Source of the DNA: an uncultured Candidatus Saccharibacteria bacterium
Lineage (GTDB): Bacteria > Patescibacteriota > Minisyncoccia > UBA6257 > Colwellbacteraceae
Reading direction: 5' to 3'
DNA: 64,000 nt
NCBI GenBank assembly: GCA_964643135.1
Contig: CAZXPC010000004.1
Coordinates: 4,716-68,715, forward strand
In this document: piece by piece, positions 2,810 through 58,537 of the stretch
Layout of the letters: each line of letters starts with the position of its first letter
Position numbering within the stretch: the first letter of the stretch is position 1
Program-made: the position numbers and the translations under genes
The notes under the pieces: model-generated
Databases searched by the model: none
Told to the model about the DNA's origin: nothing
Seen by the model: the letters and a program-made list of their open reading frames with translations, nothing else

Positions 2810-3091
2810 TTATCTCAGGCTTGCCGGCACTTCGGCGGCGGGCAGGTCGGCGATGAGGCTGATCGCGGCTTCGCGGCAGACTTCGTGGCTAGCGCGGCCG
2901 AACAACCGCTCATATTGAGCGACAAGCTTATCCAAAGTTTCTTTCGGGTCGCCGGCAATATCAACTTCCCCACTCTTTTGATCAGTGATCTTTAAGCCCT
3001 GCACTTTCCCCGCCTCATTCCAAGCTAAGGGGCCGATAACCAGCTCCTGCTCTTTAATGATTTTTGATGCAATTTGCGCGAAGATAGTCAT
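2810..3091 (-). CDS. Hypothetical small protein (93 aa)
   Basis: ORF with a coding-like amino-acid composition, immediately upstream of and co-directional with the 3095-3949 membrane protein gene; no recognisable motif. Confidence 0.4.
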   Translation of the reverse strand: MTIFAQIASKIIKEQELVIGPLAWNEAGKVQGLKITDQKSGEVDIAGDPKETLDKLVAQYERLFGRASHEVCREAAISLIADLPAAEVPASLR

Positions 3092-3094
3092 GGG

Positions 3095-3949
3095 CTAAGT
3101 ATTTGGATTTTTTTCTTCGGGCTGTCGTGGATCAAGCAAGACAATGCCCATGCTTAGCAAAGTCATTGTCATGGTAAACAACACATCGGCTAAGCTTCCG
3201 TTGTAGTAAGTTGTGAGCGTAGTGGTATATGAGAAAGTAAAATCAGCAAAATAGTTTGCTATGAAACCTGCCAAGACAATGTAAATAGCAGTCCTGTATA
3301 AACCTCCAAAATATTTAAACGACAAGCCGTAAATCAAAATTGATAAACTAAGAATCACTACATCGCCGATTGGATATGCGAGATCGAAGAATAATTTCAG
3401 CTGGTTCATAAACGGAGAAAGGGTGCTATCCGGCATAGTCAGAACTCCTCCCCTAGCCACAACGACGAGCAAATAATAAGATATCGCGATAATAACTGCA
3501 GGAATAACAAAAAGTAATATCTTGCCTTCCATTTTCCTAAGCTCAAACTTGGCGCCAGTCGCTCTAGATAGATTTATAATTCCTATCGCCCATAGGGGCC
3601 AGCTGATTACGAACGACGCATCAGCCCATGAAGGATACGGGACACTCACGCCTAAAATAATGTTGTAGTACAGCCAAATAACCATCCCGAAGCCCCAAGT
3701 TATCAGACCCAGAGATAGAAATGAGACTGCCCTGCCCACCGCGCTACTAAAACCGCCCCAACGCCTAGCCAATAGAAAACCGTAAATGCCTCCAATTAGT
3801 GGGATAATGCCGTACGTATTGCTATAAATGTTAGCCGGTCCGCCTGAGGTAGTTTGAGTAATGTAAAGATATAAAAACCAGCCCATATAAAAAACGAAAA
3901 GCGTCGCTAAGACAGTTAGGAATTTCTTTTGGATGCCTTTTGTGGACAT
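3095..3949 (-). CDS. Polytopic membrane protein, unknown function
   Basis: 284 aa with about 8 hydrophobic helices; no catalytic motif recognised. Confidence 0.5.
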   Translation of the reverse strand: MSTKGIQKKFLTVLATLFVFYMGWFLYLYITQTTSGGPANIYSNTYGIIPLIGGIYGFLLARRWGGFSSAVGRAVSFLSLGLITWGFGMVIWLYYNIILGVSVPYPSWADASFVISWPLWAIGIINLSRATGAKFELRKMEGKILLFVIPAVIIAISYYLLVVVARGGVLTMPDSTLSPFMNQLKLFFDLAYPIGDVVILSLSILIYGLSFKYFGGLYRTAIYIVLAGFIANYFADFTFSYTTTLTTYYNGSLADVLFTMTMTLLSMGIVLLDPRQPEEKNPNT

Positions 3950-3998
3950 ATTTATTGTCAGGTATATACTGAAAACAACTTAAATATTATACAAAAAT

Positions 3999-4385
3999 AT
4001 GGATAAAGACACAAAGCAGAAGTTTGGTTACAAAGGCGGTTACGGTTTGGAGTTAATATTAGATCTAAAGGGCTGTGATCTTTCAGACTTAACCCGCGAA
4101 AAGTTGAAGAGATTTTTTGTGGAATTATGCGATCGGATCAAGATGGTAAGGCATGGCGAACCTCTGTATTGGGAGGATACTTCCGATATTCCTCATCTCC
4201 GAGGCATTTCCGGATTTCAATTTATCGAAACAAGCAATGTTGTATGCCATCCAATCTCCATGCAAAATGCGGTATATCTCAACATATTCTCGTGTAAGGA
4301 ATTTGATACTGAAGATGCAGTAAAATACTGCGTCGAATTCTGGGGAGCAAAATCCGAGGTTCACACTGTTGTACCTCGCACATAA
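3999..4385 (+). CDS. S-adenosylmethionine decarboxylase-fold (SpeH-like, pyruvoyl-dependent) protein, possibly divergent
   Basis: GLELILDLKGCD and GISGFQFIETSNVVCHP...NIFSCK align with SpeH GRHLVAEFYECD and [20 protein letters not shown]...DLFTCG, including the E-S/T|S processing site; the H..WPE motif is altered. Confidence 0.55.
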   Translation: MDKDTKQKFGYKGGYGLELILDLKGCDLSDLTREKLKRFFVELCDRIKMVRHGEPLYWEDTSDIPHLRGISGFQFIETSNVVCHPISMQNAVYLNIFSCKEFDTEDAVKYCVEFWGAKSEVHTVVPRT

Positions 4386-4390
4386 AAACC

Positions 4391-4927
4391 ATGTCTTCTG
4401 ATAAGCAGGCGGCAAAGGAAACTATTCTGGAAACAGATAGTTTAGCGGTAACCTCTAGTAAATCGAAAGATCGCGGCTTAGGTGTTTTTGCAAAACATAG
4501 TTTCCGAGCTGGAGAGTTATTATTTGAAGTTAGAGGCCCAATAATGGCAAGAGGAACTAAATATTCATTATCTGTTGGCTTTGGCCAACACATTGAACCA
4601 AAAACAGAAGACGGCAAAGATGATTTCGGACATTACATGAACCACTCTTGTGATCCGAATGCATTTGTAAAAGTCGTAGCCTCATCTAAAACTCCCTACA
4701 TAGAGATCAGAGCGCGCAGGAATATCAAAAAGGGTGAAGAGTTAACATTTGATTACGCCTCATCAGAATATGAGGTAACAATAAATGGAGTTTCTTGCAG
4801 ATGCGACACAAAGCTGTGTAGGGGTAAAATTCATGGATTCAAAGATCTACCTAAAGATATTTTCGATCAGTATAAAAAAGAGGGAATAATTCCCGACCAC
4901 CTAACAAGTATTTCCAGTAATAATTAA
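4391..4927 (+). CDS. SET-domain protein (putative SAM-dependent lysine methyltransferase)
   Basis: NHSCDPN motif, ELTFDY motif and post-SET cysteine cluster CRCDTKLCRG; 5-bp gap to the upstream SpeH-like gene. Confidence 0.8.
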   Translation: MSSDKQAAKETILETDSLAVTSSKSKDRGLGVFAKHSFRAGELLFEVRGPIMARGTKYSLSVGFGQHIEPKTEDGKDDFGHYMNHSCDPNAFVKVVASSKTPYIEIRARRNIKKGEELTFDYASSEYEVTINGVSCRCDTKLCRGKIHGFKDLPKDIFDQYKKEGIIPDHLTSISSNN

Positions 4928-4947
4928 GGTAGCGCCTCTAGACGCGC

Positions 4948-5283
4948 TTATTTGCCTGGAGTAAAAACCATTAAAAAAATACCGATTAGAGCAAAGACTA
5001 TGCCAAGGTATTCCAAGCCGGTCATTTTGTCCCATTCATTAAACATAAACAAACCAACGGCTATCGTGCTCACGGTAAGAAGAGAATCCGCGATTCCCGA
5101 TCCAATCGCAACACCGACCTTGGAAGTGAGTAGCCCATAAGTTATGAACACAAAGGGAGAGACGAGGATGAGGGCGACAAGCCAAATAGAATAGCGGCTA
5201 TCCTGCCTAGCCCAAATCGCACCTATTGAGTTGGCCAGAAGAGCTACTCCAACAGCCATGACTATATAAAGAATATTTTTCAT
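4948..5283 (-). CDS. Small 4-TM membrane protein (SMR/DMT-like)
   Basis: 111 aa, four hydrophobic helices; size and topology of small multidrug-resistance-like proteins. Confidence 0.45.
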   Translation of the reverse strand: MKNILYIVMAVGVALLANSIGAIWARQDSRYSIWLVALILVSPFVFITYGLLTSKVGVAIGSGIADSLLTVSTIAVGLFMFNEWDKMTGLEYLGIVFALIGIFLMVFTPGK

Positions 5284-5413
5284 ATTGCTTAATTATAACA
5301 TTGCGGGCATTCCAGGAATGAAAAACAAAAAGAATAAATAAAAAAGCCGCATTGCCGAATGTGCATACATGGATAGTATGGATTCTAAGCAATGCGGACG
5401 TCGTCATGCGTGC

Positions 5414-6544
5414 TCACTCACCGAGGATCAGGGCGACGAGATCCGGGAAGACCTCGGTGAAGTCGCCGAAGATCTGGAAGTATGGGTCACCCGGCTCCAA
5501 CTTGTCCCAGGTGATCTTCTCCTTGCCTCCGGCTCCGGAGTAGGAACCCCCGCTCATGGGCGTGAGGTGGACCTCGACAAACCCAGCCCAGGCAGGCACG
5601 AGGGCTTCCTGGGTCTCCTGCGTCTCTTCCGCAAGGTAGTCCTTCTTCACATGCGGCACGCCGCAGATGACGAAGTCCGCCGCAATTCCGCCTCCGAGCT
5701 GGAGGAAGAAGATCCTCTTCTGCCTCGCTTCCTTCATGTAGAGCTCCGTGAAGCGGTGCATGTAGGCGTCAGGGGGCTGGATCACGGCGGGGTTGATGGG
5801 CTTCTCCTGCTTGTACTTCGCAAGGAACTCGTCGTTCCCGTTGTAGCAGTAGTAGCTGAAGATGTTCCCCATTGTGCTGTCTTCCCGGCCAGGGACGAAG
5901 ACCTGCACGCCGTGGATCATCGCCTGGTAGGCCCAACAGTCGTCGAGGTTCGCCGTGGGATCGAACGCGATCATCCCTCGGCGGACCGTCTCTTCGAAGT
6001 ACCAGTTCCAGAGATGGCTCTCGCCCTGCGCTTCGGCTTCGCGCCAGAGGCACTCCATCGGGCCGAGCATGACGCGGGTCGACTCGTCCTCCGGCATGGT
6101 CGTCGTAGTGATCCGCCGGTGGCCAGTCCGTCCGAGTTCCTTCTCCTGTGCGGGAGTGAGCTCCGGATACCTCGGGAGATAGGTGTAGTACGAGTGCGCG
6201 ATGGCTCGGTACCAGCTCTCCTCGTAGTTCGCGCCCGTACACGAGATCGCTGCGACCTTGCCCGCGCGGATCAGTCTCGAGAGCGCGATCCCGCCTTCGA
6301 ACGATGAGAAGGCGCCGGCTAGGGTGACAACGAATTTGCCGCCCTCTTCGCCGTGCCTCTTCATCGTCAGGCCGGCATCGACCATGGCGCCGCCGTTGCA
6401 GTGGCGCTTGTTCTTCACAAGATGGTTCGAAACGGGCGAGTTCGGGTTCGGCGTGTAGTCCCGGTCCACAGGCATGAAGAACGCCTGCAATTCGGGACTC
6501 AGCTGTGCCTTCTTCTCTTCGGGGCTGAGTATTTTTTGCGACAT
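5414..6544 (-). CDS. Deoxyhypusine synthase-like protein (DHS / homospermidine synthase family)
   Basis: Alignable along its length with human DHS: [40 protein letters not shown] vs [63 protein letters not shown] vs [33 protein letters not shown] vs IILGGGVVKHH. The gene is about 60% GC against a background of about 46%. Confidence 0.8.
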   Translation of the reverse strand: [376 protein letters not shown]

Positions 6545-6746
6545 CTGTAGACCTCCATCGATAGTGAGCTATGAAATTGTGAGAGAACTTATCCGCCAGA
6601 TCGGCGGATTTGTTCTATCTCGCCAACCATAGCGGTATCATCTAATCACGAGAGAGAGAGATGGTTGTCAATCTTCCGACAGCGTGGTCAAATCTAGCTG
6701 AGCACCGTTTTTAGCCTTATTTTGACTAATCCAATATAATTTAGGC

Positions 6747-7304
6747 ATGACCAAGACTGGAAAAGTAGTTTATCGTGGCATGGCGGCGGGCAAGCCGATT
6801 GTTATTCGCTATCCTAAAATGAGCGATGCGAAGGCGGCATTGGAATTTATCAATAAAATCTCTCGGGAAAAGAGCTTCCTTAACATACAAGGCAAGCAGT
6901 TGAACATGAAGGAAGAGCGAGCCTTCCTAAAAAAGAATATCTCTGGCATTAAGAAAAAAGTCTGCGTTCATCTCTTCGTCTTGGCTGGGGATCGAATTGT
7001 CGGTTCGGCAACTATGAATCGCGAGAGTATAGATGCTCAAAAACATAAAGCTGAGTTCGGTATAGTTATGGCCAAGGATATGAGAGGCTACGGGATCGGC
7101 AGACTTTTGATGTCGCTCGTTCTGAAAGAATCAGAGCGTAGTATGCAGGGCGTAAAAATGTTCACTCTGAAAGTTTTTGCTAATAACCCTCTCGCATTTA
7201 GAATGTACAGAAAGTTCGGCTTCAAACAGTTCGGCATCTTGCCCAAAGGAGTAACACACAAAGGCAAGCCCGTTGACGAAATATTCATGTATAAAGACCT
7301 ATAG
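6747..7304 (+). CDS. GNAT family N-acetyltransferase
   Basis: 185 aa; acetyl-CoA binding motif region RGYGIGRLLMSLVL and C-terminal FGF..G pattern. Confidence 0.7.
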   Translation: MTKTGKVVYRGMAAGKPIVIRYPKMSDAKAALEFINKISREKSFLNIQGKQLNMKEERAFLKKNISGIKKKVCVHLFVLAGDRIVGSATMNRESIDAQKHKAEFGIVMAKDMRGYGIGRLLMSLVLKESERSMQGVKMFTLKVFANNPLAFRMYRKFGFKQFGILPKGVTHKGKPVDEIFMYKDL

Positions 7305-7326
7305 AAAACAGGTTAACTTTTTAGAT

Positions 7327-7800
7327 ATGACGATAAAAATTAGAAAAGCTAAACGGGCGGATATTGATGCGATTGTTAAGCTTAATTCGGGGCTGACTGA
7401 CTATCACCACAAGATCGATCCGGACTATTGGAGCCCGAGCAGTAAAACGCGCGGACCTTTTAGGAAATTTATTAGCGGACAAATTGGGAAAAGAAACTCA
7501 CTAAGTCTGGTTGCGGAAGATGATGGCAAGGCTGTGGGATACTTTACGGGCAACATATTGGTACCTAAACCAGCAGTAAAGATTAGAAAGATCGGCCACC
7601 TGGGACATGGATTCTTACTGCCGGAGTATCGTAGCCAAGGTATCGCGAGAAAAGCCGGAGAAATGCTGGTTGAATGGTTTAAGAAAAAGGGCATCCGATT
7701 ACTAGAGCTTTCGGTTGACTCTAGGAATAATGTCGGCGTTCGAGCCTGGGAGGGATTGGGTTTTAAAGAGTTTATGAAAAAAATGAAATTGGAGATATAA
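7327..7800 (+). CDS. GNAT family N-acetyltransferase
   Basis: Internal Met start MTIKIRKAKRADIDAIVKLN; HGFLLPEYRSQGIARKAGEMLVEW motif A; GLGF C-terminal motif. Confidence 0.7.
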   Translation: MTIKIRKAKRADIDAIVKLNSGLTDYHHKIDPDYWSPSSKTRGPFRKFISGQIGKRNSLSLVAEDDGKAVGYFTGNILVPKPAVKIRKIGHLGHGFLLPEYRSQGIARKAGEMLVEWFKKKGIRLLELSVDSRNNVGVRAWEGLGFKEFMKKMKLEI

Positions 7801-7804
7801 AAAT

Positions 7805-7963
7805 ATGAAATCAAAATCAATTATTAAAAAGGTTGTTAAAGATAAAAATCAGGATCGCAGGATTTTTGATGCTTCGAGAGATAATAGAGGAGCTGGTGTA
7901 AGAACTCAGGATCTGATCAAAACTATTAAGAAAATCGAGGGAGACTTAACAAAGGATTTATGA
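7805..7963 (+). CDS. Possible small Lys-rich protein (52 aa)
   Basis: Short ORF (MKSKSIIKKVVKDKNQDRRIFDASRDNRGAGVRTQDLIKTIKKIEGDLTKDL) whose stop overlaps the ATG of the next gene (ATGA); below the 60-aa cut-off of the ORF track. Confidence 0.25.
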   Translation: MKSKSIIKKVVKDKNQDRRIFDASRDNRGAGVRTQDLIKTIKKIEGDLTKDL

Positions 7964-8517
7964 TTTACTATGTCACGGGAAGCGATATTAAATTTAAAAC
8001 CGCACAGGATTGTCTAAAAGAGCATGGCATTGATATTGTTCAGAAAACGCTGGATATTAAAGAAATCCAGAGCGAGTCGATCGAAGAGATAGCAATCGAT
8101 AAGGCTAAACGAGCTTTTGAGACAATCAAAGAACCCCTGTTCATTAATGATTCCGGCTGGTTTTTCGCAGGACTCAATGGCTTTCCCGGCGCCTATATGG
8201 CCTATATTAATAGATGGCTTACGGCTGACGATTTGATAAATCTCATGAAAGGAAAAGATAACCGGGAGGTAATTCTAAAACAAGTTGTCGTCTATATCGA
8301 TGAAAAAGGACATAAAATTTTAGAACATGATTCTATCGGCAAGATTTTAGAAAAACCAAGCATTAATATCGGACGACCGTCAGAAATGGTTTCGTCCTTC
8401 TCGGGTGATGATCTGGCCTTAACAGACCAAAGGGCTAAAGGAATTAAAAATATCGGGCCAGAGCAGGAACTCTGGAGTGAATTGGCAGATTGGCTAAGAG
8501 AAACTAAGAGACCCTAA
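7960..8517 (+). CDS. Ham1/ITPase-family non-canonical purine NTP pyrophosphatase paralog 1 (N-to-S variant in the TGN motif)
   Basis: YYVTGSDIKFKTA, LDIKEIQSESIEEIA and FINDSGWFFAGLNGFPGAYMAYI match ITPA motifs FVTGNAKK, IDLPEYQGEPDEIS and ALGGLPGPYIKWF. Confidence 0.7.
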   Translation: MIYYVTGSDIKFKTAQDCLKEHGIDIVQKTLDIKEIQSESIEEIAIDKAKRAFETIKEPLFINDSGWFFAGLNGFPGAYMAYINRWLTADDLINLMKGKDNREVILKQVVVYIDEKGHKILEHDSIGKILEKPSINIGRPSEMVSSFSGDDLALTDQRAKGIKNIGPEQELWSELADWLRETKRP

Positions 8518-8917
8518 CGCCTAAATCTTCGTAGAACCTCAAAAGATATCCATCGGGATCTTGGACAATGAATTGTCGGTTGCCGACCAATGAGTTGTCT
8601 TTGCGATACCACTTTTCATCGATGGGCAAGAAAACTTTGATGTTGTGCTTGCTAATTGTCGCGTAAAGGGCGTCGATCCTCTCAGTTTCGATCTGGAAAT
8701 TAACTCCCCGGCCGAAAGGTAGTTCGAGCTTACCGGTTTGCCACGCACTTTCCGAGGAGAGCTCTTCTAACATGATTTCGGCGTTGCCTTTTTTAATATA
8801 CGCGAACTGATCCTCAGGCCTCTGGTAGACAATAGTAAAGCCTAGTAACTCATAAAAATTGAGGCTTTGCTTGATATCAGAACAAAATAACTCCGGCACC
8901 AACCCGATCGGTTTCAT
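8504..8917 (-). CDS. VOC family protein (glyoxalase/bleomycin-resistance/dioxygenase superfamily)
   Basis: 137 aa; paired beta-alpha-beta-beta-beta module signature (LNFYELLGF..., ...DPDGYLLRFYE). Confidence 0.65.
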   Translation of the reverse strand: MKPIGLVPELFCSDIKQSLNFYELLGFTIVYQRPEDQFAYIKKGNAEIMLEELSSESAWQTGKLELPFGRGVNFQIETERIDALYATISKHNIKVFLPIDEKWYRKDNSLVGNRQFIVQDPDGYLLRFYEDLGVRVS

Positions 8918-8955
8918 GGCCTAAGAATACCATATTAAGATATAATGAATCGATC

Positions 8956-9522
8956 ATGAAAATATCTCAATTGACATATGTCACGGGGAATAATTTCAAA
9001 TTCGAAGTGGCGAAAAAGGCTTTTGCTGGCTCGGGTATTGAGATAACTCAAACCAAGATGGACTTGCCGGAAATACAAAGCGAGAGCGTGGAGGAAATAG
9101 CAGGTCACTCGGCCAAGATCGCAGCGCAAAAGTTGGGCATGCCGGTTTTGGTTGGTGACGTTGGCTATTCTGTTGAAGCGCTTAGTGGTTTTCCGGGACC
9201 GTTTATAAAATATATGAATAAATGGCTAACTGTGCAGGACTGGCTAAATTTAATGCAGGGAAAGGAAAATAGAAGCATGATAATTAAAGAAGCCCTCGCC
9301 TACTGCGAACCGAATTCTGAACCCACAGTTTTTACCGGATCTTTTAACGGACTGGTAGCGCTAAAAGCTGGTCCGCCGGGCAAAAACCCGGTCAACCAAG
9401 TTTGGATACCCGAGGGCTACAATAAAGTTGAAACTGAAATACCTGAAGGAGAGTTGGTTCAGGGCTGGATAAAAACTTCCGGCCATTGGGAGAAGTTAAT
9501 AAAATATTTGAAAACGAAATAA
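8956..9522 (+). CDS. Ham1/ITPase-family non-canonical purine NTP pyrophosphatase paralog 2
   Basis: LTYVTGNNFKFEVA, KMDLPEIQSESVEEIA and VLVGDVGYSVEALSGFPGPFIKYM closely match ITPA consensus motifs. Confidence 0.8.
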   Translation: MKISQLTYVTGNNFKFEVAKKAFAGSGIEITQTKMDLPEIQSESVEEIAGHSAKIAAQKLGMPVLVGDVGYSVEALSGFPGPFIKYMNKWLTVQDWLNLMQGKENRSMIIKEALAYCEPNSEPTVFTGSFNGLVALKAGPPGKNPVNQVWIPEGYNKVETEIPEGELVQGWIKTSGHWEKLIKYLKTK

Positions 9523-9525
9523 AGG

Positions 9526-10077
9526 TTATCTAGGGTTTTTATAGATCCTGTATTCGATAATTTTCCTGACTACTCCCCTAGAGTTAGCCTTGTCATATTC
9601 CTCATAAACTTTGGCCCCCATTGATTCTGGGATTTTTCGGCTCGCAATATTCTCAGGCATAACTGGATAGCGAAGATAATCATAATTTATGTTGGTATCC
9701 GCCCAATCTTTTAAGGCCGCCATCGTTTCCCGACCATATTTTTTACCGTGGGCTGATTTCTTGATCCAGATGCCGAGCTCCGGAGTTGGGGTATCAACAT
9801 CGTGCAACCCTCCGCAACCGATAAACTCACCCGTTTGTTTATCAGTGATAACTATTTGTAGGTCTTTGCCAGCCGCTAAATCTCTGAGGGAATTATTTAT
9901 AAAGTTATCAGTAACAGATATATCCCCTGAAGGCTGAGGGAACATGTGGGTTGCGATTTCCTCTGTAAATTCACGGAAAATATCCTCGCGATAGATCGGG
10001 GAAATCGGAGCCAAGAGCAAATTAGCGGTTTCGATCCTGGAATCTAATAAGTTGAGTTTTTCTTTCGGGGTTTCCAT
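9526..10077 (-). CDS. GNAT family N-acetyltransferase (RimJ/RimL-like)
   Basis: 183 aa; GNAT motif A region around GCGGLHDV...GIWIKKSAHGKKYGRETMAAL. Confidence 0.65.
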   Translation of the reverse strand: METPKEKLNLLDSRIETANLLLAPISPIYREDIFREFTEEIATHMFPQPSGDISVTDNFINNSLRDLAAGKDLQIVITDKQTGEFIGCGGLHDVDTPTPELGIWIKKSAHGKKYGRETMAALKDWADTNINYDYLRYPVMPENIASRKIPESMGAKVYEEYDKANSRGVVRKIIEYRIYKNPR

Positions 10078-49959: not shown

Positions 49960-50041
49960 GGGCGGATGGTGGAACTGGCATACACCTGCGTCTCAGAAGC
50001 GCAGTCCGCAAGGATTGAGGGTTCAAATCCCTCTCCGCCCA
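49960..50041 (+). tRNA. tRNA-Leu (anticodon CAG), class II with long variable arm
   Basis: Manual fold: acceptor GGGCGGA/TCCGCCC; U8; 3-bp D-stem GTG/CAC with 11-nt D-loop GAACTGGCATA (compare E. coli tRNA-Leu GAAUUGGUAGA); anticodon stem TGCGT/GCGCA with loop CTCAGAA (U33, anticodon CAG); 13-nt variable arm; T-arm GAGGG-TTCAAAT-CCCTC; discriminator A73; CCA not encoded. Confidence 0.85.
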
Positions 50042-53690: not shown

Positions 53691-56600
53691 TTATAGCTTT
53701 TTGAGGCCGATCCAAACGTCTTCGCCGCTGATTTTGGTTTCGGAAAGGGCGGTGAATTTGTCGGTTTTCTTGTAATGGATGGCAGCGGTGCCGGTGTTGC
53801 TCTTAAGAGCATCGAGGTGGGCTTCGATCGCGGCTTGGATATTTTCGGAAGCCTCGATATAAAGCTCGATCTTGTCGCTCGGCTTCAGATCGGCATCTTG
53901 GCGGAGGGCTTGGACGGCGCGGTTAAGTTCGCGCATGGCGCCTTCGCGTTTTAGATCTTCGGTCAGGTTGGTGTCTAAAATAATTTCTTCCTTAGCGCCT
54001 TTGTCGAAGATCACTTTCTTAACATTAATCTCATCGGACAAGACTTCCAGCAGTTCGCCATCAAGGTTTAGGGGGTTATTTCTAATGGTGAGGCTGGCTA
54101 ACGGCTGACGAACTTTGATATTAGCTTCGGCCCGCTTGGCCAAACCGGCGGCGGCCAGGCGGCGAACTTCTTCCATCTTTTTATTTAGATCTTTGTCGAT
54201 AAATTTGGCGTGAACTTCGGGCCAATTGTCGAGGTGGACGGATTTATCGCCCGCGGCCATGGATTTGTAGAGCGCATCGGCAAAAAAGGGCGCGAAGGGA
54301 GCAATCATTTTCGAGATTTCGAAAATCACAAAAAGCAGAGTTTTAACCATGTCGTTGCGATCGCGGCTGCGGCGGATATACCAGCGCGAGAGGTCGTCGA
54401 CCAGGCTTTCCAGCGAGCGGGCGGCGAGGCCGATTTCATACTTATCCAGGCTATCGGTAGCAAATTGGACGGTTTCGCTGAGGCGGGACAAAATCCACTT
54501 ATCTAAAACGTGGTTAGGGTGCGGGTGCTCGGGCACGGGGTTGGGCGTGTGTTCAAGCGTTTCGGAAAAGAGATATGAGTTGTAGAGAATGCCGAAAAAC
54601 CTACGTGAAACTTTGCCGAGATCGGCTTCGTCAAAATCTTTATTCTCACCGGGCGGATTAACAGTATAGAAATACCAGCGGATGACGTCGGCGCCGTATT
54701 TATTGATCATTTCCCACGGATCGACGATATTGCCCTTTGATTTAGACATTTTTTGGCCGAATTTATCGTGGATTAGGCCAAGCGAGATCACGTTTTTGTA
54801 AACTTCTTTCCGGCCGAGAATGACACCCACCGCGAGCAGAGTGTAGAACCAGCCGCGGGTTTGATCCATGCCTTCGCTGATATAATCCGCCGGGAAACCG
54901 ACGCCGATCTTGTCGATCAGATCTTTATTTTCGAACGGATAGTGGACCGAGGCAAAAGGCATGGCGCCGGAATCAAACCAGACATCAGCCACGTCGGGGA
55001 TGCGCTCCATGCGTACCATTTTCCTAGAGTTCTTTTTGCCTTTATTCTTTGGTATACATTTCTCGCACTTCAAATGGACCCGGTCAATATAGGGGCGGTG
55101 AAGGTCAACTTTGCCGACCTTGTTGTATGAAATATTTTTGAAAATGATCTCGCGCCACTCGCCCGGCTGGAGCGGAACCACTGCCATGGAATCTTCGTTA
55201 GAAAGATTCTTCACGGCGGCCTCGAGCATCCAGAGAGGATCGCCGTGGCTTACAATCAAAATAGTTTTGCCTTCATGGGCTGAATCTACTTCATCCAAGA
55301 ATTGGAAAACCCTCTCTTTTACTTGGGTCAGAGTTTCCCCGCCTGAAGGGGCCTTAAGGAATTTCTCGGTAACGTTGTCGAAAAAGCTGTTATATTCTTT
55401 GGAAGTTTTCCAGTTGAAAATACCGGCATTGATTTCGCCCAAACGCTTGTCCTCGATAACCTTGGCGCTGATAGTTTTGCTCAATATTTTGACCGTCTCT
55501 TTAGCGCGAGCGAAAGGCGAAACGTAGATGAGGTCGATTTTTTCTTTTTTGAGGGCTTTCGCGGCAGCATCGGCGGCAGCCTTGCCTTCTTTGGTTAAGT
55601 GAGAAATTTTGCCCTTGGTTTCGGGGCCGGAAGCCATAACATCTTTAACATTATGTTCGGCTCCGCCGTGGCGCATCAGAATAAAGCGGTTGTTTTGAAC
55701 GGCGCTGGACTCAAGGTCGGCCAGGCTTTCTACAACCTTCACGTGGCCTTCTTTACACTGCCAGATCGGCAGAGGGGTGGCCCAATATCTTTCGCGCGAG
55801 ATAGCCCAATCTTTAGCTTCTTTGATCCATTCGCCGAACCGGCCGGTTTTGATTGAAGCGGGAATCCAGTTGACCTTATTATTAGCGGCCATCAATTTGT
55901 CACGCAAAGTCGACATAGCGATAAACCACGAATCCATGGCGTAATAAAGAAGCGGGGTCGAACAGCGCCAGCAAAAAGGATATTCGTGGGTATAAGGTTC
56001 GGTTTTGACTAGGAAATTTTCTTTGTCGAGATGATCGAAGATGCGCGATTCGGTGTCTTTCGCTTTGGCGTAAAAACCGCCGAGCTTGGGCACGTCTTTA
56101 ATGAAGAGGCCGGACTTCTCAACGGTGTGATGCTGAGGAAGCCCTAGCTTTTTGCCTAAGTTGTAGTCGTCTTCACCATACATGACGGCCGTGTGGACCA
56201 CTCCGGTGCCGTCGGTTGTCGTTACAAAATCAGCCGGGTAGACATGATAAGCTTTTTTGGCTGTTTGGCTTTTTTGCTGGAAGGGCTTAATGTCCCAAAG
56301 CGGCTCGTAAGCCAGGCCAACCAAATCTTTGCCTGTTAAAACGCCTATTTCTTTGCCTTTGGTGGTCTTAGCAAGAGGCATGTCGTGGAAATAGACGCCC
56401 TCTTTGTCGTGGATATCCTTGGCGATAATCCAATATTCCGGCTCGCCCGACCGACTGGCACCGCCGACTTTGTGTTCGATCGTGACATATTTGATCTTCT
56501 CCCCAACCGCCAAAGCCACGTTGCCCGGCAAGGTCCAAGGAGTTGTAGTCCACGAGAGAATATAAACATTACCGTTGGCTTTTAAATCTTTAGAAATTTT

Positions 56601-57263
56601 CTGACCTTTTTTGACGCGAAATTTGATATAGACCGAGGCGTCGGTTGTCTCTTTATAACCCTGGGCGATTTCGTGAGAAGAAAGCGCGGTACCGCAGCGC
56701 GTACACCAAGGCACAATTTTGTGGCCTTTATAGAGCAGTTTCTTTTGCCAAGCCTGGGCTAAGATCCACCAAAGCGATTCGATATATGTTTTTTTATAAG
56801 TAACGTAAGGATTTTTAAGATCAACCCAGTAGCCGGTGCGCTCGGTCATCCGCTCCCACTCGTCTTTATACTGCCAAACCGATTCTTTGCAGCGCTGATT
56901 GAATTCGGCAATGCCGTATTTTTCGATATCTTTTTTAGACTTGAAGCCGAGCGCTTTTTCAACTGCTATTTCCACCGGCAGGCCGTGAGTATCCCAGCCG
57001 GCTTTGCGGGGCACGTAATAACCCTTCATCGATTTATAACGGGGAATGATGTCTTTATAGCTTCGGGAGAGCATGTGGTGAAGGCCAGGCGAACCGTTGG
57101 CAGTCGGCGGGCCTTCCCAAAAGTTAAATATCTTAGGCGCTTCCTCCCCCTTCATCTGCCTTCGTTGGGCGAGAGATTTTTCGAAAATATTATATTTTTT
57201 CCAAAAGTCGAGAACTTTTTCTTCGAGATTGGGGAGATTGAATTCTTTTATGTTCTTCAGCAT
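53691..57263 (-). CDS. ileS: Isoleucine--tRNA ligase carrying an inserted histidine-phosphatase (PGAM-like) domain
   Basis: Class I motifs PPTANGSPGLHHMLS (HIGH) and KMSKSKGN; editing domain; zinc-knuckle CWRC/CEKC. Residues about 526-700 (nt about 55164-55688) contain RHGGAEHN ... LIVSHGDPLWML, the two catalytic-His motifs of the phosphoglycerate-mutase / histidine-phosphatase superfamily, inserted between IWQCKEGH and DLHRPYID. Confidence 0.85.
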   Translation of the reverse strand: MLKNIKEFNLPNLEEKVLDFWKKYNIFEKSLAQRRQMKGEEAPKIFNFWEGPPTANGSPGLHHMLSRSYKDIIPRYKSMKGYYVPRKAGWDTHGLPVEIAVEKALGFKSKKDIEKYGIAEFNQRCKESVWQYKDEWERMTERTGYWVDLKNPYVTYKKTYIESLWWILAQAWQKKLLYKGHKIVPWCTRCGTALSSHEIAQGYKETTDASVYIKFRVKKGQKISKDLKANGNVYILSWTTTPWTLPGNVALAVGEKIKYVTIEHKVGGASRSGEPEYWIIAKDIHDKEGVYFHDMPLAKTTKGKEIGVLTGKDLVGLAYEPLWDIKPFQQKSQTAKKAYHVYPADFVTTTDGTGVVHTAVMYGEDDYNLGKKLGLPQHHTVEKSGLFIKDVPKLGGFYAKAKDTESRIFDHLDKENFLVKTEPYTHEYPFCWRCSTPLLYYAMDSWFIAMSTLRDKLMAANNKVNWIPASIKTGRFGEWIKEAKDWAISRERYWATPLPIWQCKEGHVKVVESLADLESSAVQNNRFILMRHGGAEHNVKDVMASGPETKGKISHLTKEGKAAADAAAKALKKEKIDLIYVSPFARAKETVKILSKTISAKVIEDKRLGEINAGIFNWKTSKEYNSFFDNVTEKFLKAPSGGETLTQVKERVFQFLDEVDSAHEGKTILIVSHGDPLWMLEAAVKNLSNEDSMAVVPLQPGEWREIIFKNISYNKVGKVDLHRPYIDRVHLKCEKCIPKNKGKKNSRKMVRMERIPDVADVWFDSGAMPFASVHYPFENKDLIDKIGVGFPADYISEGMDQTRGWFYTLLAVGVILGRKEVYKNVISLGLIHDKFGQKMSKSKGNIVDPWEMINKYGADVIRWYFYTVNPPGENKDFDEADLGKVSRRFFGILYNSYLFSETLEHTPNPVPEHPHPNHVLDKWILSRLSETVQFATDSLDKYEIGLAARSLESLVDDLSRWYIRRSRDRNDMVKTLLFVIFEISKMIAPFAPFFADALYKSMAAGDKSVHLDNWPEVHAKFIDKDLNKKMEEVRRLAAAGLAKRAEANIKVRQPLASLTIRNNPLNLDGELLEVLSDEINVKKVIFDKGAKEEIILDTNLTEDLKREGAMRELNRAVQALRQDADLKPSDKIELYIEASENIQAAIEAHLDALKSNTGTAAIHYKKTDKFTALSETKISGEDVWIGLKKL

Positions 57264-57529: not shown

Positions 57530-58537
57530 TTAACCGAGCCTGTTACGGACGGCGACGCAGACGAAGTCGCCCGAGACAAACTCTTCGACGGTGATCGTAT
57601 CGAGGTGGAGAACCTCGCCGTGGAAGGTTGCCTTGACTAGGGAGTCTCGGCCGTTCGCGCGGACTTCTTCGATCGCGCTTACGTAGGGCTTGCCTTCTTC
57701 AACCAGGCCGGCTTGCTTGGCCTCTCGGAGGATCACTCCAAAGGCCACGATGCGGGCCGGCTTCTGCTTCAAGAGCTCCATTCTCTTCATCACATCTCCG
57801 GGCAATTGCCCCTTGGAAGAGAGAGTGATGTTGCCCACGATGTCCGTTTTCAACGGGCCGCCGAGCCGGTCGAGGAGGTGGCGCACGATCGGCTCTGCGG
57901 TAACTAGGCCGCCGAACATTTCGCCGAGCTTGAGGCTCCCGCCGGGAATGGTGACCAAGATCTCGGTCGGAACCTGGACCCGGTTCGGGTTGGCGTGATG
58001 CTCCACCATCTTCGGCGCGTTGCCGTTCGGCTCGTTCCGCTTGTTCCAATCCAGCCAGTTGCCATGCTGACGTCCGGTTCCGATACCAACAGCCGGATCG
58101 TCTGAGATGGGCGGAACTTTCGGACCGGTCTTCTTCACAGGCGGGAAAGATGCGATCCTCCTGCCCCTCGGAGGAGGTGGCGGGGGCCTGAGAGATCTCG
58201 CGTCGACGTGGCTCTCATCCCAGAGACGCTCCGATACGATGGGCGATAGCCCAGGATCAGGCGGCTTAGGCTCCACGACCGGCGCGGACTCAGGTTCCGG
58301 AGCCGGCGGCAGAGGGGGCGGTTCCGCCTCCACTGCGACAGCTTTCGGTTCTGGCGGGATCGCGGCCGGCTTCGGGACAACGGGCTTCAGAGGAGACGGC
58401 TTCGCGAGGCCCTTCTCGATCAATGCATCGAGGGCCTTGTTCACTTCGGGACATGAGATCCTCTCTTCGCTCATCAAGCGGCCGAGTGTGTACATCTTGT
58501 CGAAGTATTCTCGTTGCTTAACTATGTCGAACGTCAA
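57530..58537 (-). CDS. Pro-rich hypothetical protein, GC-rich (about 60%)
   Basis: 335 aa; central PPxP-rich region; strong third-position G/C bias unlike its neighbours. Confidence 0.5.
   Translation of the reverse strand: MTFDIVKQREYFDKMYTLGRLMSEERISCPEVNKALDALIEKGLAKPSPLKPVVPKPAAIPPEPKAVAVEAEPPPLPPAPEPESAPVVEPKPPDPGLSPIVSERLWDESHVDARSLRPPPPPPRGRRIASFPPVKKTGPKVPPISDDPAVGIGTGRQHGNWLDWNKRNEPNGNAPKMVEHHANPNRVQVPTEILVTIPGGSLKLGEMFGGLVTAEPIVRHLLDRLGGPLKTDIVGNITLSSKGQLPGDVMKRMELLKQKPARIVAFGVILREAKQAGLVEEGKPYVSAIEEVRANGRDSLVKATFHGEVLHLDTITVEEFVSGDFVCVAVRNRLG

What the first reader, a model, noticed from the sequence alone, without database searches (positions are those of the whole stretch)
5369..6550. 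Deoxyhypusine-synthase homolog with foreign base composition (about 60% GC against about 46%)
The DHS-like gene aligns with eukaryotic DHS across its whole length, yet bacteria lack eIF5A. Its GC content and third-position bias differ sharply from flanking genes, and the composition shift stops at the gene borders. The high GC produces a spurious 312-aa antisense ORF. This points to recent horizontal acquisition from a high-GC donor and a non-canonical role, such as homospermidine synthesis or EF-P modification.
Basis: seen in the sequence. Interest (0 to 1): 0.55.

Follow-up and report, generated by a model that had tools for sequence, protein, structure and literature searches.

The report
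GC-rich SpeY-like polyamine gene, CPR bacterium
A polyamine-synthesis gene in a tiny uncultured (CPR) bacterium is much richer in G+C than its surroundings, but this is an old, inherited trait shared with its relatives in other hosts and not evidence of a recent import.

Summary
The gene at 5414..6544 (-) has 61.4% GC and GC3 0.84, against 42% GC locally and a mean GC3 of 0.54. The shift is confined to the CDS.

The 312-aa antisense ORF is a by-product of the high GC3. It is nevertheless the protein on record for the public NCBI contig.

The protein is a divergent deoxyhypusine-synthase-fold enzyme from a family widespread in Patescibacteria (CPR). It keeps the catalytic Lys and the NAD-contact residues. 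It has lost the two aspartates that anchor spermidine, as the agmatine-coupling enzyme SpeY/CdmS has. In 81 of 151 loci its relatives sit next to arginine decarboxylase, agmatine deiminase/amidase or agmatinase genes. A SpeY-type role in homospermidine synthesis is therefore most likely.

"Recent acquisition from a high-GC donor" is not supported:
- All eight members of its subclade have GC3 of 0.82-0.96, in hosts with GC3 from 0.43 to 0.91.
- Seven of them sit at a near-constant log-odds offset above their host.
- The closest homologue (72%) co-occurs, in one sample, with the host's closest HisRS relative (71%).
- Synonymous sites between the two copies are near saturation.

The cause of the persistent GC enrichment is unexplained. 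It is not ordinary codon optimisation.

The parts
5414..6544 (-). DHS-fold (PF01916) gene, 376 aa. Divergent CPR-wide subfamily and probable SpeY-type agmatine-coupling (diagmatine) synthase. GC 0.614, GC3 0.84.
   Evidence: ORF. Pfam DS 64 bits. AF2 pLDDT 89.9 and Foldseek top hits all DHS. Residue mapping to human DHS. Composition.
5369..6307 (+). 312-aa antisense ORF in the codon-aligned frame. A by-product of high GC3 and not a gene, yet it is the protein on record for the 71.9-kb NCBI contig.
   Evidence: Only 2 sense TTA/CTA/TCA codons, and 19% of synonymous shuffles give a run at least as long. The same frame is fully open in L003, L165, L167 and L168. Exact look-up finds P0362 with source NCBI, while the true protein P0001 comes only from Logan.
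5340..5397 (-). Intrinsic terminator: a long hairpin followed by a U-tract, directly after the stop codon. Conserved with the 72%-identical homologue.
   Evidence: Alignment with L003 shows conserved blocks and compensatory changes. Both sequences fold the same way, z -3.3 and -3.7. Inverted repeat I2.
6643..6672 (-). Conserved promoter-like block ATTGACA(A/G)CCATCTCTCTCTCTCGTG(A/T)TTA, containing a TTGACA -35-type hexamer (6666..6671). 28 of 30 nt are identical to L003.
   Evidence: Alignment A1 and coordinates. The simple sigma-70 scan found no canonical -35/-10 pair, so promoter function is inferred from conservation only.
6545..6640 (-). 5' leader with a long hairpin (core 6591..6609) and the Shine-Dalgarno GGAGG (6552..6556).
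   Evidence: Fold -31.9 kcal/mol, z -3.55. RBS conserved with L003. Coordinates.
3999..4385 (+). 128-aa AdoMetDC-fold protein about 1 kb from the gene. Candidate SpeDA-type pyruvoyl arginine decarboxylase that would supply agmatine. This is an inference.
   Evidence: Pfam AdoMet_dc 49.9 bits and no NCBIfam equivalog. The literature reports SpeD-derived ADCs usually clustered with speY, including in CPR (PMC10407285; PMC13625781). Only one other locus (L076) has a homologue nearby.

Best explanation
What it is. The gene is a long-resident member of a Patescibacteria-wide branch of the deoxyhypusine-synthase superfamily. It is not a recent import.

Likely function. It most likely works like SpeY/CdmS. 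With NAD and a catalytic lysine (K348) it would transfer the 4-carbon moiety of one agmatine onto a second agmatine, giving bis(guanidino)homospermidine. Agmatinase-like or deiminase-plus-amidase enzymes would then trim this to homospermidine. In this genome the nearby AdoMetDC-fold protein may be the arginine decarboxylase that supplies agmatine.

The GC enrichment. It is a heritable property of the gene's subclade. In seven of its eight sampled members, synonymous sites sit at a roughly constant log-odds offset (about +1.4 to +2.0) above the host's own GC3. That pattern fits a mutation-versus-bias equilibrium: either selection for GC or RNA structure in this mRNA, or GC-biased gene conversion. 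It does not fit a decaying foreign signature.

Shown: fold, conserved residues, family gene context, composition statistics, and matched divergence with HisRS.
Inferred: the substrate, the role of the AdoMetDC-like gene, and the nature of the force keeping the gene GC-rich.
For: FUNCTION
- Pfam DS is above threshold.
- The AF2 model has pLDDT 89.9, and all top PDB matches are DHS.
- Conserved against human DHS: K329 to invariant K348, W327 to W346, E323 to E342, and the NAD contacts D238 to D222, D342 to D361, E137 to E109.
- The two spermidine-anchoring aspartates are replaced: D243 by invariant N227 and D316 by invariant Y335.
- These are the two positions that distinguish agmatine-coupling CdmS/SpeY (Phe204, Leu286) from human DHS (PMC10981699).
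- Within 5 kb of the gene in 151 distinct loci: ADC-like in 46, agmatine-deiminase-like in 43, N-carbamoylputrescine-amidase-like in 29, agmatinase in 18. In all, 81 of 151 loci have at least one.
- This is the partner set described for SpeY clusters (PMC13625781).

RESIDENCY AND GC
- L003 (72% aa) has GC3 0.82 in a 40% GC context.
- Codon identity at conserved residues is 0.63, against 0.53 expected at saturation.
- HisRS's best relative (71%) is in the same run as L003 with matching composition, and L173 shares response-regulator-then-HisRS synteny with the window.
- The promoter block and the terminator are conserved between the two copies.
- Subclade logit shifts are +1.43 to +1.97 in seven hosts with GC3 0.43-0.74, and +0.23 in the outgroup L004.
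- Family-wide, the gene ranks at the 83rd GC3 percentile and is top in 27 loci against 8.7 expected.
Against: - No enzyme of this CPR branch has been assayed.
- Its scores against the SpeY-type NCBIfam models are far below cutoff: the window protein scores 20.8 bits on NF001980 (cutoff 450) and does not reach E 0.001 on NF002699; across the 32 members the best E-values are 2.4e-17 and 9.3e-13.
- The residues replacing the two aspartates (Asn, Tyr) differ from those in CdmS (Phe, Leu).
- In this window, and in the solitary subclade loci, none of the four usual partner genes lies nearby. None is found anywhere in the 64 kb.
- That L003 and L174 come from one organism is inferred from a shared run and matching composition. 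It is not demonstrated.
- The DHS-like gene sits in different neighbourhoods in the window and in L003, so it has moved at least once.
- One subclade member (L170) lives in a very GC-rich host, so a GC-rich ancestral home for the subclade is possible.
- No mechanism for the GC offset was demonstrated.
Confidence: 0.6

Rival explanations
1. Old horizontal transfer with incomplete amelioration. The common ancestor of the window's host and the L003 organism received the gene from a GC-rich member of the same CPR subclade (L170- or L168-like). The copies are still drifting down towards host composition.
For: - The subclade includes GC-rich hosts: L170 with GC3 0.91 and L168 with 0.74.
- GC1 and GC2 and the amino-acid composition are also GC-shifted, as after long residence in a GC-rich genome.
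- speY and speDA genes are reported to spread mainly by HGT, especially among CPR and DPANN organisms (PMC13625781; PMC10407285).
- The gene's location differs between the window and L003.
Against: - Synonymous sites between the two low-GC-host copies are close to saturation.
- Despite that, each copy keeps roughly three quarters of the maximum possible GC3 excess, which neutral decay would have largely erased.
- The offset is nearly the same in seven hosts rather than scattered by age of transfer.
- In every mid-GC host the gene is still the GC3 maximum of its locus.
Confidence: 0.2
2. One reading: a recent horizontal acquisition by this genome from a high-GC donor outside its lineage.
For: - The compositional step at the CDS borders is sharp (+0.18 GC, +0.30 to +0.37 GC3).
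- The gene lies in a low-GC accessory-looking stretch of GNAT, Ham1, SET and glyoxalase genes.
Against: - The best non-self homologue is only 72% identical and also sits in a low-GC context.
- All homologues at 50-60% identity that carry a name are CPR.
- Divergence is matched with HisRS in the same sample.
- Both intergenic flanks are host-like in composition, and there are no direct repeats, integrase or tRNA at the borders.
- There are no phage or plasmid relatives.
Confidence: 0.07
3. Ordinary translational selection. The gene is very highly expressed and uses the host's optimal codons.
For: - Family-wide, the gene and the ADC-like first enzyme of the pathway both have modestly raised GC3 (+0.09 and +0.11), while the downstream enzymes do not.
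- The gene has a strong Shine-Dalgarno sequence, its own promoter-like block and its own terminator.
Against: - The bias raises G over A (0.77 against 0.38) as much as C over T.
- In L168 the adjacent rplJ and rplL genes show C preference (0.90) but no G preference (0.51), while the DHS-like gene shows 0.93 and 0.95.
- Housekeeping genes of the window have GC3 of only 0.55-0.64.
- GC1 and GC2 are also raised.
Confidence: 0.08
4. A true deoxyhypusine-type protein-modifying enzyme, acting for example on EF-P or another translation factor.
For: - The catalytic Lys and the NAD site are retained.
- In two subclade loci the gene lies next to translation genes: lepA in L165 and rplJ-rplL in L168.
Against: - Both spermidine-anchoring aspartates are lost.
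- EF-P lies within about 3-6 kb of the gene in only 3 of about 151 loci and is never adjacent.
- The dominant gene context is agmatine metabolism.
Confidence: 0.03
5. The GC-richness is kept by a second, overlapping antisense gene (the 312-aa ORF).
For: - The antisense frame is open for 297 to 377 codons in all five subclade genes checked.
- The ORF is the one called on the NCBI contig.
Against: - The length is within expectation from codon usage alone (19% of shuffles).
- Its start codon lies inside the terminator hairpin.
- The translated sequence is low-complexity and rich in Arg, Leu, Val and Asp, as is typical of antisense reading of GC3-rich genes.
Confidence: 0.02

Closest known systems
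[quoted passage not shown]
   Same: - DHS fold, NAD site, catalytic Lys, and the Glu323-equivalent residue.
- Loss of both acidic residues at human positions D243 and D316.
- Family-wide clustering with arginine decarboxylase plus either agmatinase-like or deiminase-plus-amidase genes.
- Occasional pairing with an AdoMetDC-derived decarboxylase.
   Different: - Sequence is far below the NCBIfam SpeY-type cutoffs and about as distant from SpeY as from archaeal or eukaryotic DHS.
- The replacing residues are Asn and Tyr, not Phe and Leu.
- The protein is longer (about 370 aa), with extra helices.
- In this window and its subclade the gene stands alone with its own promoter and terminator, and it carries a strong GC3 excess.
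Eukaryotic/archaeal deoxyhypusine synthase (human DHS 1DHS/6XXJ; P. horikoshii 7CMC)
   Same: Overall fold (TM 0.61-0.77), NAD-dependent chemistry implied by conserved residues, and the Lys in the ...W-x-K motif.
   Different: - Only 14-18% identity.
- Spermidine-binding D243 and D316 are absent, and the H288 region differs (GGGVVKHH in human, GGGIAADF here).
- No eIF5A/aIF5A substrate exists in bacteria.
- The gene context is agmatine metabolism.
Plant DHS-derived homospermidine synthase (Senecio and others)
   Same: A DHS-fold enzyme recruited to make homospermidine rather than to modify a protein.
   Different: The plant enzymes are close paralogues of DHS that still use spermidine plus putrescine. 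This family is an ancient separate branch, probably agmatine-dependent.
Bacterial HSS (Blastochloris viridis 4TVB)
   Same: The end product, homospermidine, and the NAD cofactor.
   Different: The fold is non-homologous, there is no catalytic lysine, and the enzyme is putrescine-dependent (PMC4725965 abstract; PMC13625781).

Membership tests
Deoxyhypusine synthase superfamily (Pfam PF01916, DS) | Sequence match above Pfam's gathering threshold | tested here: met
   64.2 bits against a cutoff of 27, covering residues 66-371.
Deoxyhypusine synthase superfamily (Pfam PF01916, DS) | DHS three-dimensional fold | tested here: met
   AF2 pLDDT 89.9 and pTM 0.89. All of the top 50 PDB matches are DHS, with E down to 4e-12 and TM 0.61-0.77.
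Deoxyhypusine synthase superfamily (Pfam PF01916, DS) | Catalytic (enzyme-imine) lysine and NAD-contact acidic residues | tested here: met
   K348, W346, E342, D222, D361 and E109 are invariant in 32 family members. They align with human K329, W327, E323, D238, D342 and E137.
Canonical DHS (modifies eIF5A/aIF5A with spermidine) | Passes the curated DHS equivalog models | tested here: not met
   Best score is TIGR00321 at 30.1 bits against a cutoff of 304. The others score <=26 bits against cutoffs of 350-434.
Canonical DHS (modifies eIF5A/aIF5A with spermidine) | Spermidine-anchoring Asp243 and Asp316 (human numbering) | tested here: not met
   They are replaced by invariant Asn227 and Tyr335. 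The role of these residues is taken from PMC10981699.
Canonical DHS (modifies eIF5A/aIF5A with spermidine) | A lysine-bearing IF5A-type protein substrate encoded by the organism or nearby | tested here: inconclusive
   There is no EF-P/IF5A gene in the window. EF-P lies within about 3-6 kb of the gene in 3 of about 151 loci and is never adjacent. The full genome is not available.
SpeY / CdmS (agmatine-homocoupling synthase) | Non-acidic residues at the D243 and D316 positions, with the Glu323 equivalent and the Lys retained | tested here: met
   N227 and Y335, with E342 and K348 retained. CdmS has F204 and L286 with E293 and K299. The residues differ, but the loss of both acidic side chains is shared.
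SpeY / CdmS (agmatine-homocoupling synthase) | Gene clustering with arginine decarboxylase and agmatinase-like, or deiminase-plus-amidase, partners | tested here: met
   Met for the family: 81 of 151 loci. Not met for this window, where none of the four partners is found in 64 kb and only an AdoMetDC-fold gene lies 1 kb away.
SpeY / CdmS (agmatine-homocoupling synthase) | Passes the curated SpeY-type models (NF001980, NF002699) | tested here: not met
   NF001980 scores 20.8 bits against a cutoff of 450 for the window protein. Across the 32 members the best E-values are 2e-17 (NF001980) and 9e-13 (NF002699).
SpeY / CdmS (agmatine-homocoupling synthase) | Forms bis(guanidino)homospermidine from agmatine plus NAD | not testable with these tools
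   Requires an enzyme assay or expression in E. coli lacking speB, as in PMC13625781.
Recently acquired genomic island or foreign gene | Composition deviating from the host | tested here: met
   GC is +0.13 to +0.20 and GC3 is +0.30 to +0.37 above the host.
Recently acquired genomic island or foreign gene | Nearest homologues come from the putative donor type and not from the host's own relatives | tested here: not met
   The nearest homologue (72%) is in a 40% GC context and co-occurs with the host's nearest HisRS relative. The named homologues at 50-60% are CPR.
Recently acquired genomic island or foreign gene | Insertion signatures: flanking direct repeats, tRNA target, integrase or transposase | tested here: not met
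   There are no direct repeats within 4800-7300. The only tRNA is at 49960. The neighbours are GNAT, SET, AdoMetDC-like and membrane proteins.

The most novel reading that the evidence does not exclude
A gene-specific force keeps this polyamine-synthesis gene GC-rich in whatever genome it lives in. The force would amount to a roughly constant log-odds push of about 1.5-2 at synonymous sites, also visible at non-synonymous sites, and it persists across CPR hosts from 40% to 60% GC.

The most interesting version is selection on the mRNA itself. A GC-rich, highly structured transcript might have its translation or stability tuned by polyamines, which bind structured RNA. That would give product feedback on the first committed enzymes, and the ADC-like partner gene shows a milder version of the same bias. 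A less exotic version is locus-specific GC-biased gene conversion.
Probability: 0.15. Interest if true: 0.7.

Novelty: new member of a known kind. Interest (0 to 1): 0.4.

Why it matters
1. Metabolism. The result assigns a probable function, SpeY-type agmatine-dependent homospermidine synthesis, to a large uncharacterised DHS-fold family that is common in CPR bacteria. These organisms' minimal metabolism is of wide interest. None of the NCBIfam DHS or SpeY-type equivalog models tested reaches its cutoff on this family.

2. Method. This is a clear counter-example to the habit of reading a sharp GC or GC3 step as recent horizontal transfer. Here the anomaly is old, is inherited, and scales with host composition.

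3. Annotation. The anomaly has a practical cost. On the public contig the wrong strand was called, so metabolic reconstructions of that genome would miss the enzyme.

4. Open question. The cause of the constant GC offset is unexplained and could be tested with population or expression data.

Tried and rejected
- Rfam scan of the window found nothing, so no known RNA explains the GC-rich stretch.
- The sigma-70 consensus scan found no canonical promoter upstream. The conserved TTGACA block is therefore only promoter-like.
- The source databases gave no organism names for the key proteins. Host placement rests on named hits to RNase J (Colwellbacteria/Paceibacterota, 70-77%) and HisRS (Doudnabacteria, 64%), which do not agree at class level.
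- Phage and plasmid collections gave no match.
- The GTDB genome scan did not contain the window's species; the best hit was 58%.
- Flank comparison between the window and eight subclade loci found no shared neighbours of the DHS-like gene. The only shared synteny is response regulator then HisRS, with L173.
- Supplements of the SpeY paper are not held, so no characterised SpeY sequence could be aligned directly. The NCBIfam SpeY-type models were used instead.
- The other 60%-GC ORF (57530..58537) was considered as a 'native GC-rich gene'. It is a Pro/Ala-rich low-complexity protein and not a fair comparator.
- The antisense ORF as a real gene was rejected.
- Translational selection was rejected as the main cause.
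- The NJ tree uses a simple distance method on divergent, compositionally biased proteins. Its subclade is corroborated by the shared HLTPMS(A/G)G loop, but deeper branching was not relied on.
Full report
**1. What is there.**

The finding's interval combines two ORFs. One is a 376-aa ORF on the minus strand (5414..6544). The other is a 312-aa ORF on the plus strand (5369..6307). The minus-strand ORF is the gene:
- It matches Pfam DS (PF01916) at 64 bits over residues 66-371.
- It has 1522 homologues in a 5.8-billion-protein collection. The best 120 are 49-72% identical over the full length.

- The gene has GC 0.614 and GC3 0.84. The 55 long ORFs of the window average GC 0.479 (sd 0.049) and GC3 0.538 (sd 0.092).
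- The immediate surroundings (3000-10077 without the gene) are 41.8% GC, and the rest of the window is 49.0%.
- The step coincides with the CDS. Both intergenic spacers are 39-44% GC, and each 30-codon block has GC3 of 0.73-0.93.
- Two independent Logan assemblies contain the same sequence, so it is not an assembly chimera.
- The only other ~60% GC stretch (57530..58537) is a Pro/Ala-rich low-complexity ORF.

**2. The antisense ORF.**

It lies in the codon-aligned antisense frame, where stops arise only from sense TTA, CTA or TCA codons. The gene has two of these. Synonymous-codon shuffles give a longest antisense run of 245 ± 58 codons, and 19% reach the observed 297. In four relatives the same frame is open end to end. 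Its ATG lies inside the terminator hairpin. It is a by-product.

Even so, exact look-up shows that this 312-aa product is the protein on record for the 71,949-bp NCBI contig. The real protein is recorded only from the Logan assemblies. The unusual composition has apparently led to a wrong-strand gene call.

**3. What the protein is.**

- It is far below every curated DHS equivalog cutoff: 30 bits at best, against cutoffs of 304-434.
- It is equally far below the SpeY-type models: the window protein scores 20.8 bits on NF001980 (cutoff 450) and does not reach E 0.001 on NF002699.
- Plain sequence search against the PDB finds only the C-terminal ~45 residues.
- A 32-sequence family profile aligns with human and archaeal DHS.
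- The AlphaFold model (pLDDT 89.9) matches only DHS structures, at TM 0.61-0.77 and 14-18% identity.

Residues invariant in the family, with their human DHS counterparts:

| Family residue | Human DHS residue | Role |
|---|---|---|
| K348 | K329 | enzyme-imine lysine |
| W346 | W327 | substrate pocket |
| E342 | E323 | substrate pocket |
| D222 | D238 | NAD contact |
| D361 | D342 | NAD contact |
| E109 | E137 | NAD contact |

By contrast, human D243 and D316 are replaced by invariant N227 and Y335. The Thermus study of CdmS/SpeY reports that these two positions (Phe204 and Leu286 in CdmS) are what set the agmatine-coupling enzyme's pocket apart from human DHS (PMC10981699).

**4. Gene context across the family.**

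I collected about 170 loci and clustered all ORFs within 5 kb of the gene in 151 distinct loci. The four most frequent neighbours were:

| Neighbour | Loci |
|---|---|
| Alanine-racemase-fold arginine-decarboxylase-like protein | 46 |
| Agmatine deiminase homologue | 43 |
| N-carbamoylputrescine amidase homologue | 29 |
| Agmatinase (above the TIGR01230 cutoff) | 18 |

In all, 81 of 151 loci have at least one. This is the partner set of the SpeY pathway: arginine to agmatine, two agmatines to bis(guanidino)homospermidine, then ureohydrolase or iminohydrolase plus amidase to homospermidine (PMC13625781).

EF-P lies within about 3-6 kb of the gene in only three loci and is never adjacent.

In the window itself none of the four partners is present in 64 kb. 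A 128-aa AdoMetDC-fold gene lies 1 kb away. AdoMetDC-derived arginine decarboxylases ('SpeDA') are reported to be clustered mostly with speY, including in CPR and DPANN genomes (PMC10407285). That assignment is an inference here.

**5. Is it foreign?**

*Host.* RNase J has relatives at 86-88%, and the named ones (70-77%) are Colwellbacteria/Paceibacterota. HisRS's best named hit is a Doudnabacteria MAG at 64%. The host is a CPR bacterium whose species is not among the GTDB representatives.

*Closest relative.* The gene's closest relative, P0002 (72% aa, run SRR28285715), has GC3 0.82 next to an RNase R-like gene with GC3 0.43. At 256 conserved degenerate residues the two genes share the codon in 63% of cases, against 53% expected from codon usage alone. 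Synonymous sites are therefore close to saturation.

*Noncoding flanks.* Despite that saturation, the flanks keep a 30-nt TTGACA-containing block, the Shine-Dalgarno sequence, and a long terminator hairpin with compensatory changes. The transcription unit is conserved as a unit.

*Matched divergence.* The best non-self relative of the window's HisRS (P0243, 71%) is found in the same run, SRR28285715. Its contig has matching composition (GC3 0.40-0.46) and similarly saturated synonymous sites. A second contig carrying the identical protein (L173, run SRR22388081) also shares response-regulator-then-HisRS synteny with the window. So the host's closest known relative most likely carries the gene's closest known relative at the same divergence. 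This is the pattern of vertical descent, or at least of acquisition before the two lineages split.

*Insertion signatures.* No direct repeats, tRNA or mobility genes flank the gene. No phage or plasmid relatives exist.

**6. The anomaly belongs to the gene's subclade, not to this genome.**

An NJ tree and a shared HLTPMS(A/G)GSYSGAG loop place the window next to P0050, P0055 and P0118, and then next to P0017, P0030, P0034 and P0037.

In all seven further loci examined the gene is the GC3 maximum among the called genes. In L168 it exceeds the adjacent rplJ and rplL (0.95 against 0.77).

Gene and host GC3 in the subclade:

| Locus | Gene GC3 | Host GC3 | Logit shift |
|---|---|---|---|
| L003 | 0.82 | 0.43 | +1.80 |
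| Window | 0.84 | 0.54 | +1.47 |
| L167 | 0.87 | 0.61 | +1.46 |
| L172 | 0.87 | 0.62 | +1.43 |
| L165 | 0.92 | 0.65 | +1.87 |
| L171 | 0.91 | 0.70 | +1.50 |
| L168 | 0.95 | 0.74 | +1.97 |
| L170 | 0.96 | 0.91 | +0.74 |

The 60%-identical outgroup L004 has a shift of only +0.23.

A near-constant log-odds shift that tracks host composition is what a mutation-versus-directional-force equilibrium predicts. Imports of various ages would scatter. A rough calculation points the same way. With the synonymous 'memory' left between the window and L003 (about 0.2 for the pair), neutral decay from any possible starting GC3 could not leave about 0.3 of excess in both lineages.

Family-wide there is a milder tendency. 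GC3 is above flanking ORFs in 118 of 134 loci. The gene sits at the 83rd percentile on average and is the top gene in 27 loci against 8.7 expected. The ADC-like partner shares this tendency (+0.11), but the downstream enzymes do not.

**7. What kind of bias.**

In the subclade both C over T (0.86 in the window against 0.47-0.52 in host genes) and G over A (0.77 against 0.38) are raised. Ribosomal protein genes next to the L168 copy show C preference without G preference. GC1 and GC2 are also elevated: GC12 is 0.49-0.54, against 0.45 for orthologues with host-like GC3 (residual sd 0.014).

So this is GC enrichment as such and not classical codon optimisation. The data do not show whether the cause is selection on the mRNA (structure, stability or regulation), locus-specific GC-biased gene conversion, or a very slow relaxation from a GC-rich ancestor. 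I rank the first two together as most likely and the third as the main rival.

**8. Verdict.**

- The functional guess (non-canonical, homospermidine-related) is supported and sharpened to a SpeY-type, agmatine-dependent reaction.
- 'Recent acquisition from a high-GC donor' is not supported.
- The enzyme is a new, uncharacterised member of a known kind.
- The persistent GC offset that scales with host composition, and the wrong-strand annotation it appears to have caused, are the points worth remembering.

Noticed in passing
window 53691..57263 (-): A 1190-aa class-I aminoacyl-tRNA synthetase (IleRS-like: tRNA-synt_1, Anticodon_1, DUF5915). A complete histidine-phosphatase domain (PF00300, 115 bits) is inserted at residues 528-691, splitting the catalytic domain.
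   Followed up: no
window 5369..6307 (+), same place as the finding: The spurious antisense ORF is the protein on record for the 71.9-kb NCBI contig, and the true DHS-like protein is absent from that source. This looks like a wrong-strand gene call caused by the atypical composition.
   Followed up: yes
window about 3000..10077: A stretch with lower GC (41.8% against 49.0% elsewhere), full of small accessory-type genes: three GNAT acetyltransferases, two Ham1/ITPase paralogues flanking a glyoxalase-fold gene, a SET-domain protein and an AdoMetDC-like protein. This stretch is absent downstream of HisRS in the relative (L173/L174), where an AstE/AspA-family gene follows instead.
   Followed up: partly
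L167 13256..14119, L172 3482..4336, L173 1825..2652, L174 1418..2245: An AstE/AspA-family (succinylglutamate desuccinylase/aspartoacylase-type) gene recurs. It lies immediately downstream of the DHS-like gene in L172 and two genes (about 2 kb) downstream in L167, and next to HisRS in the host's relative (L173/L174). It has no homologue in the window. A link to the polyamine pathway is possible but untested.
   Followed up: no
loci L005-L164 (ADC-like partner genes, e.g. L024 4412..5791): The arginine-decarboxylase-like gene clustered with the DHS-like gene is also GC3-elevated relative to its neighbours (+0.11, 83rd percentile). The deiminase, amidase and agmatinase partners are much less so.
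   Followed up: partly
window 57530..58537 (-): A 335-aa ORF with a Pro/Ala-rich low-complexity N-terminal half. It has GC 0.61 and GC3 0.74, no Pfam match, and sits between the IleRS and ArgRS genes.
   Followed up: no
window 6560..6639 (-): The 5' leader of the DHS-like mRNA folds into a long, stable hairpin (-31.9 kcal/mol, z -3.55). L003 has a different, shorter hairpin at the same position. It could be a stabilising or regulatory element.
   Followed up: partly
L170 11418..14331: In the GC-rich subclade host, two amine-oxidase-family (PF01593) genes lie 6-9 kb downstream of the DHS-like gene. This may be polyamine catabolism.
   Followed up: no
L085 (JAEYQK010000054.1) and L138 (JBAZVO010000005.1): Family members occur on contigs binned as Acidobacteria (58% identity, and here the gene's GC3 of 0.63 is below its flanks at 0.72) and as Woesearchaeota (46%). 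These are either mis-binned CPR contigs or real transfers outside CPR.
   Followed up: no
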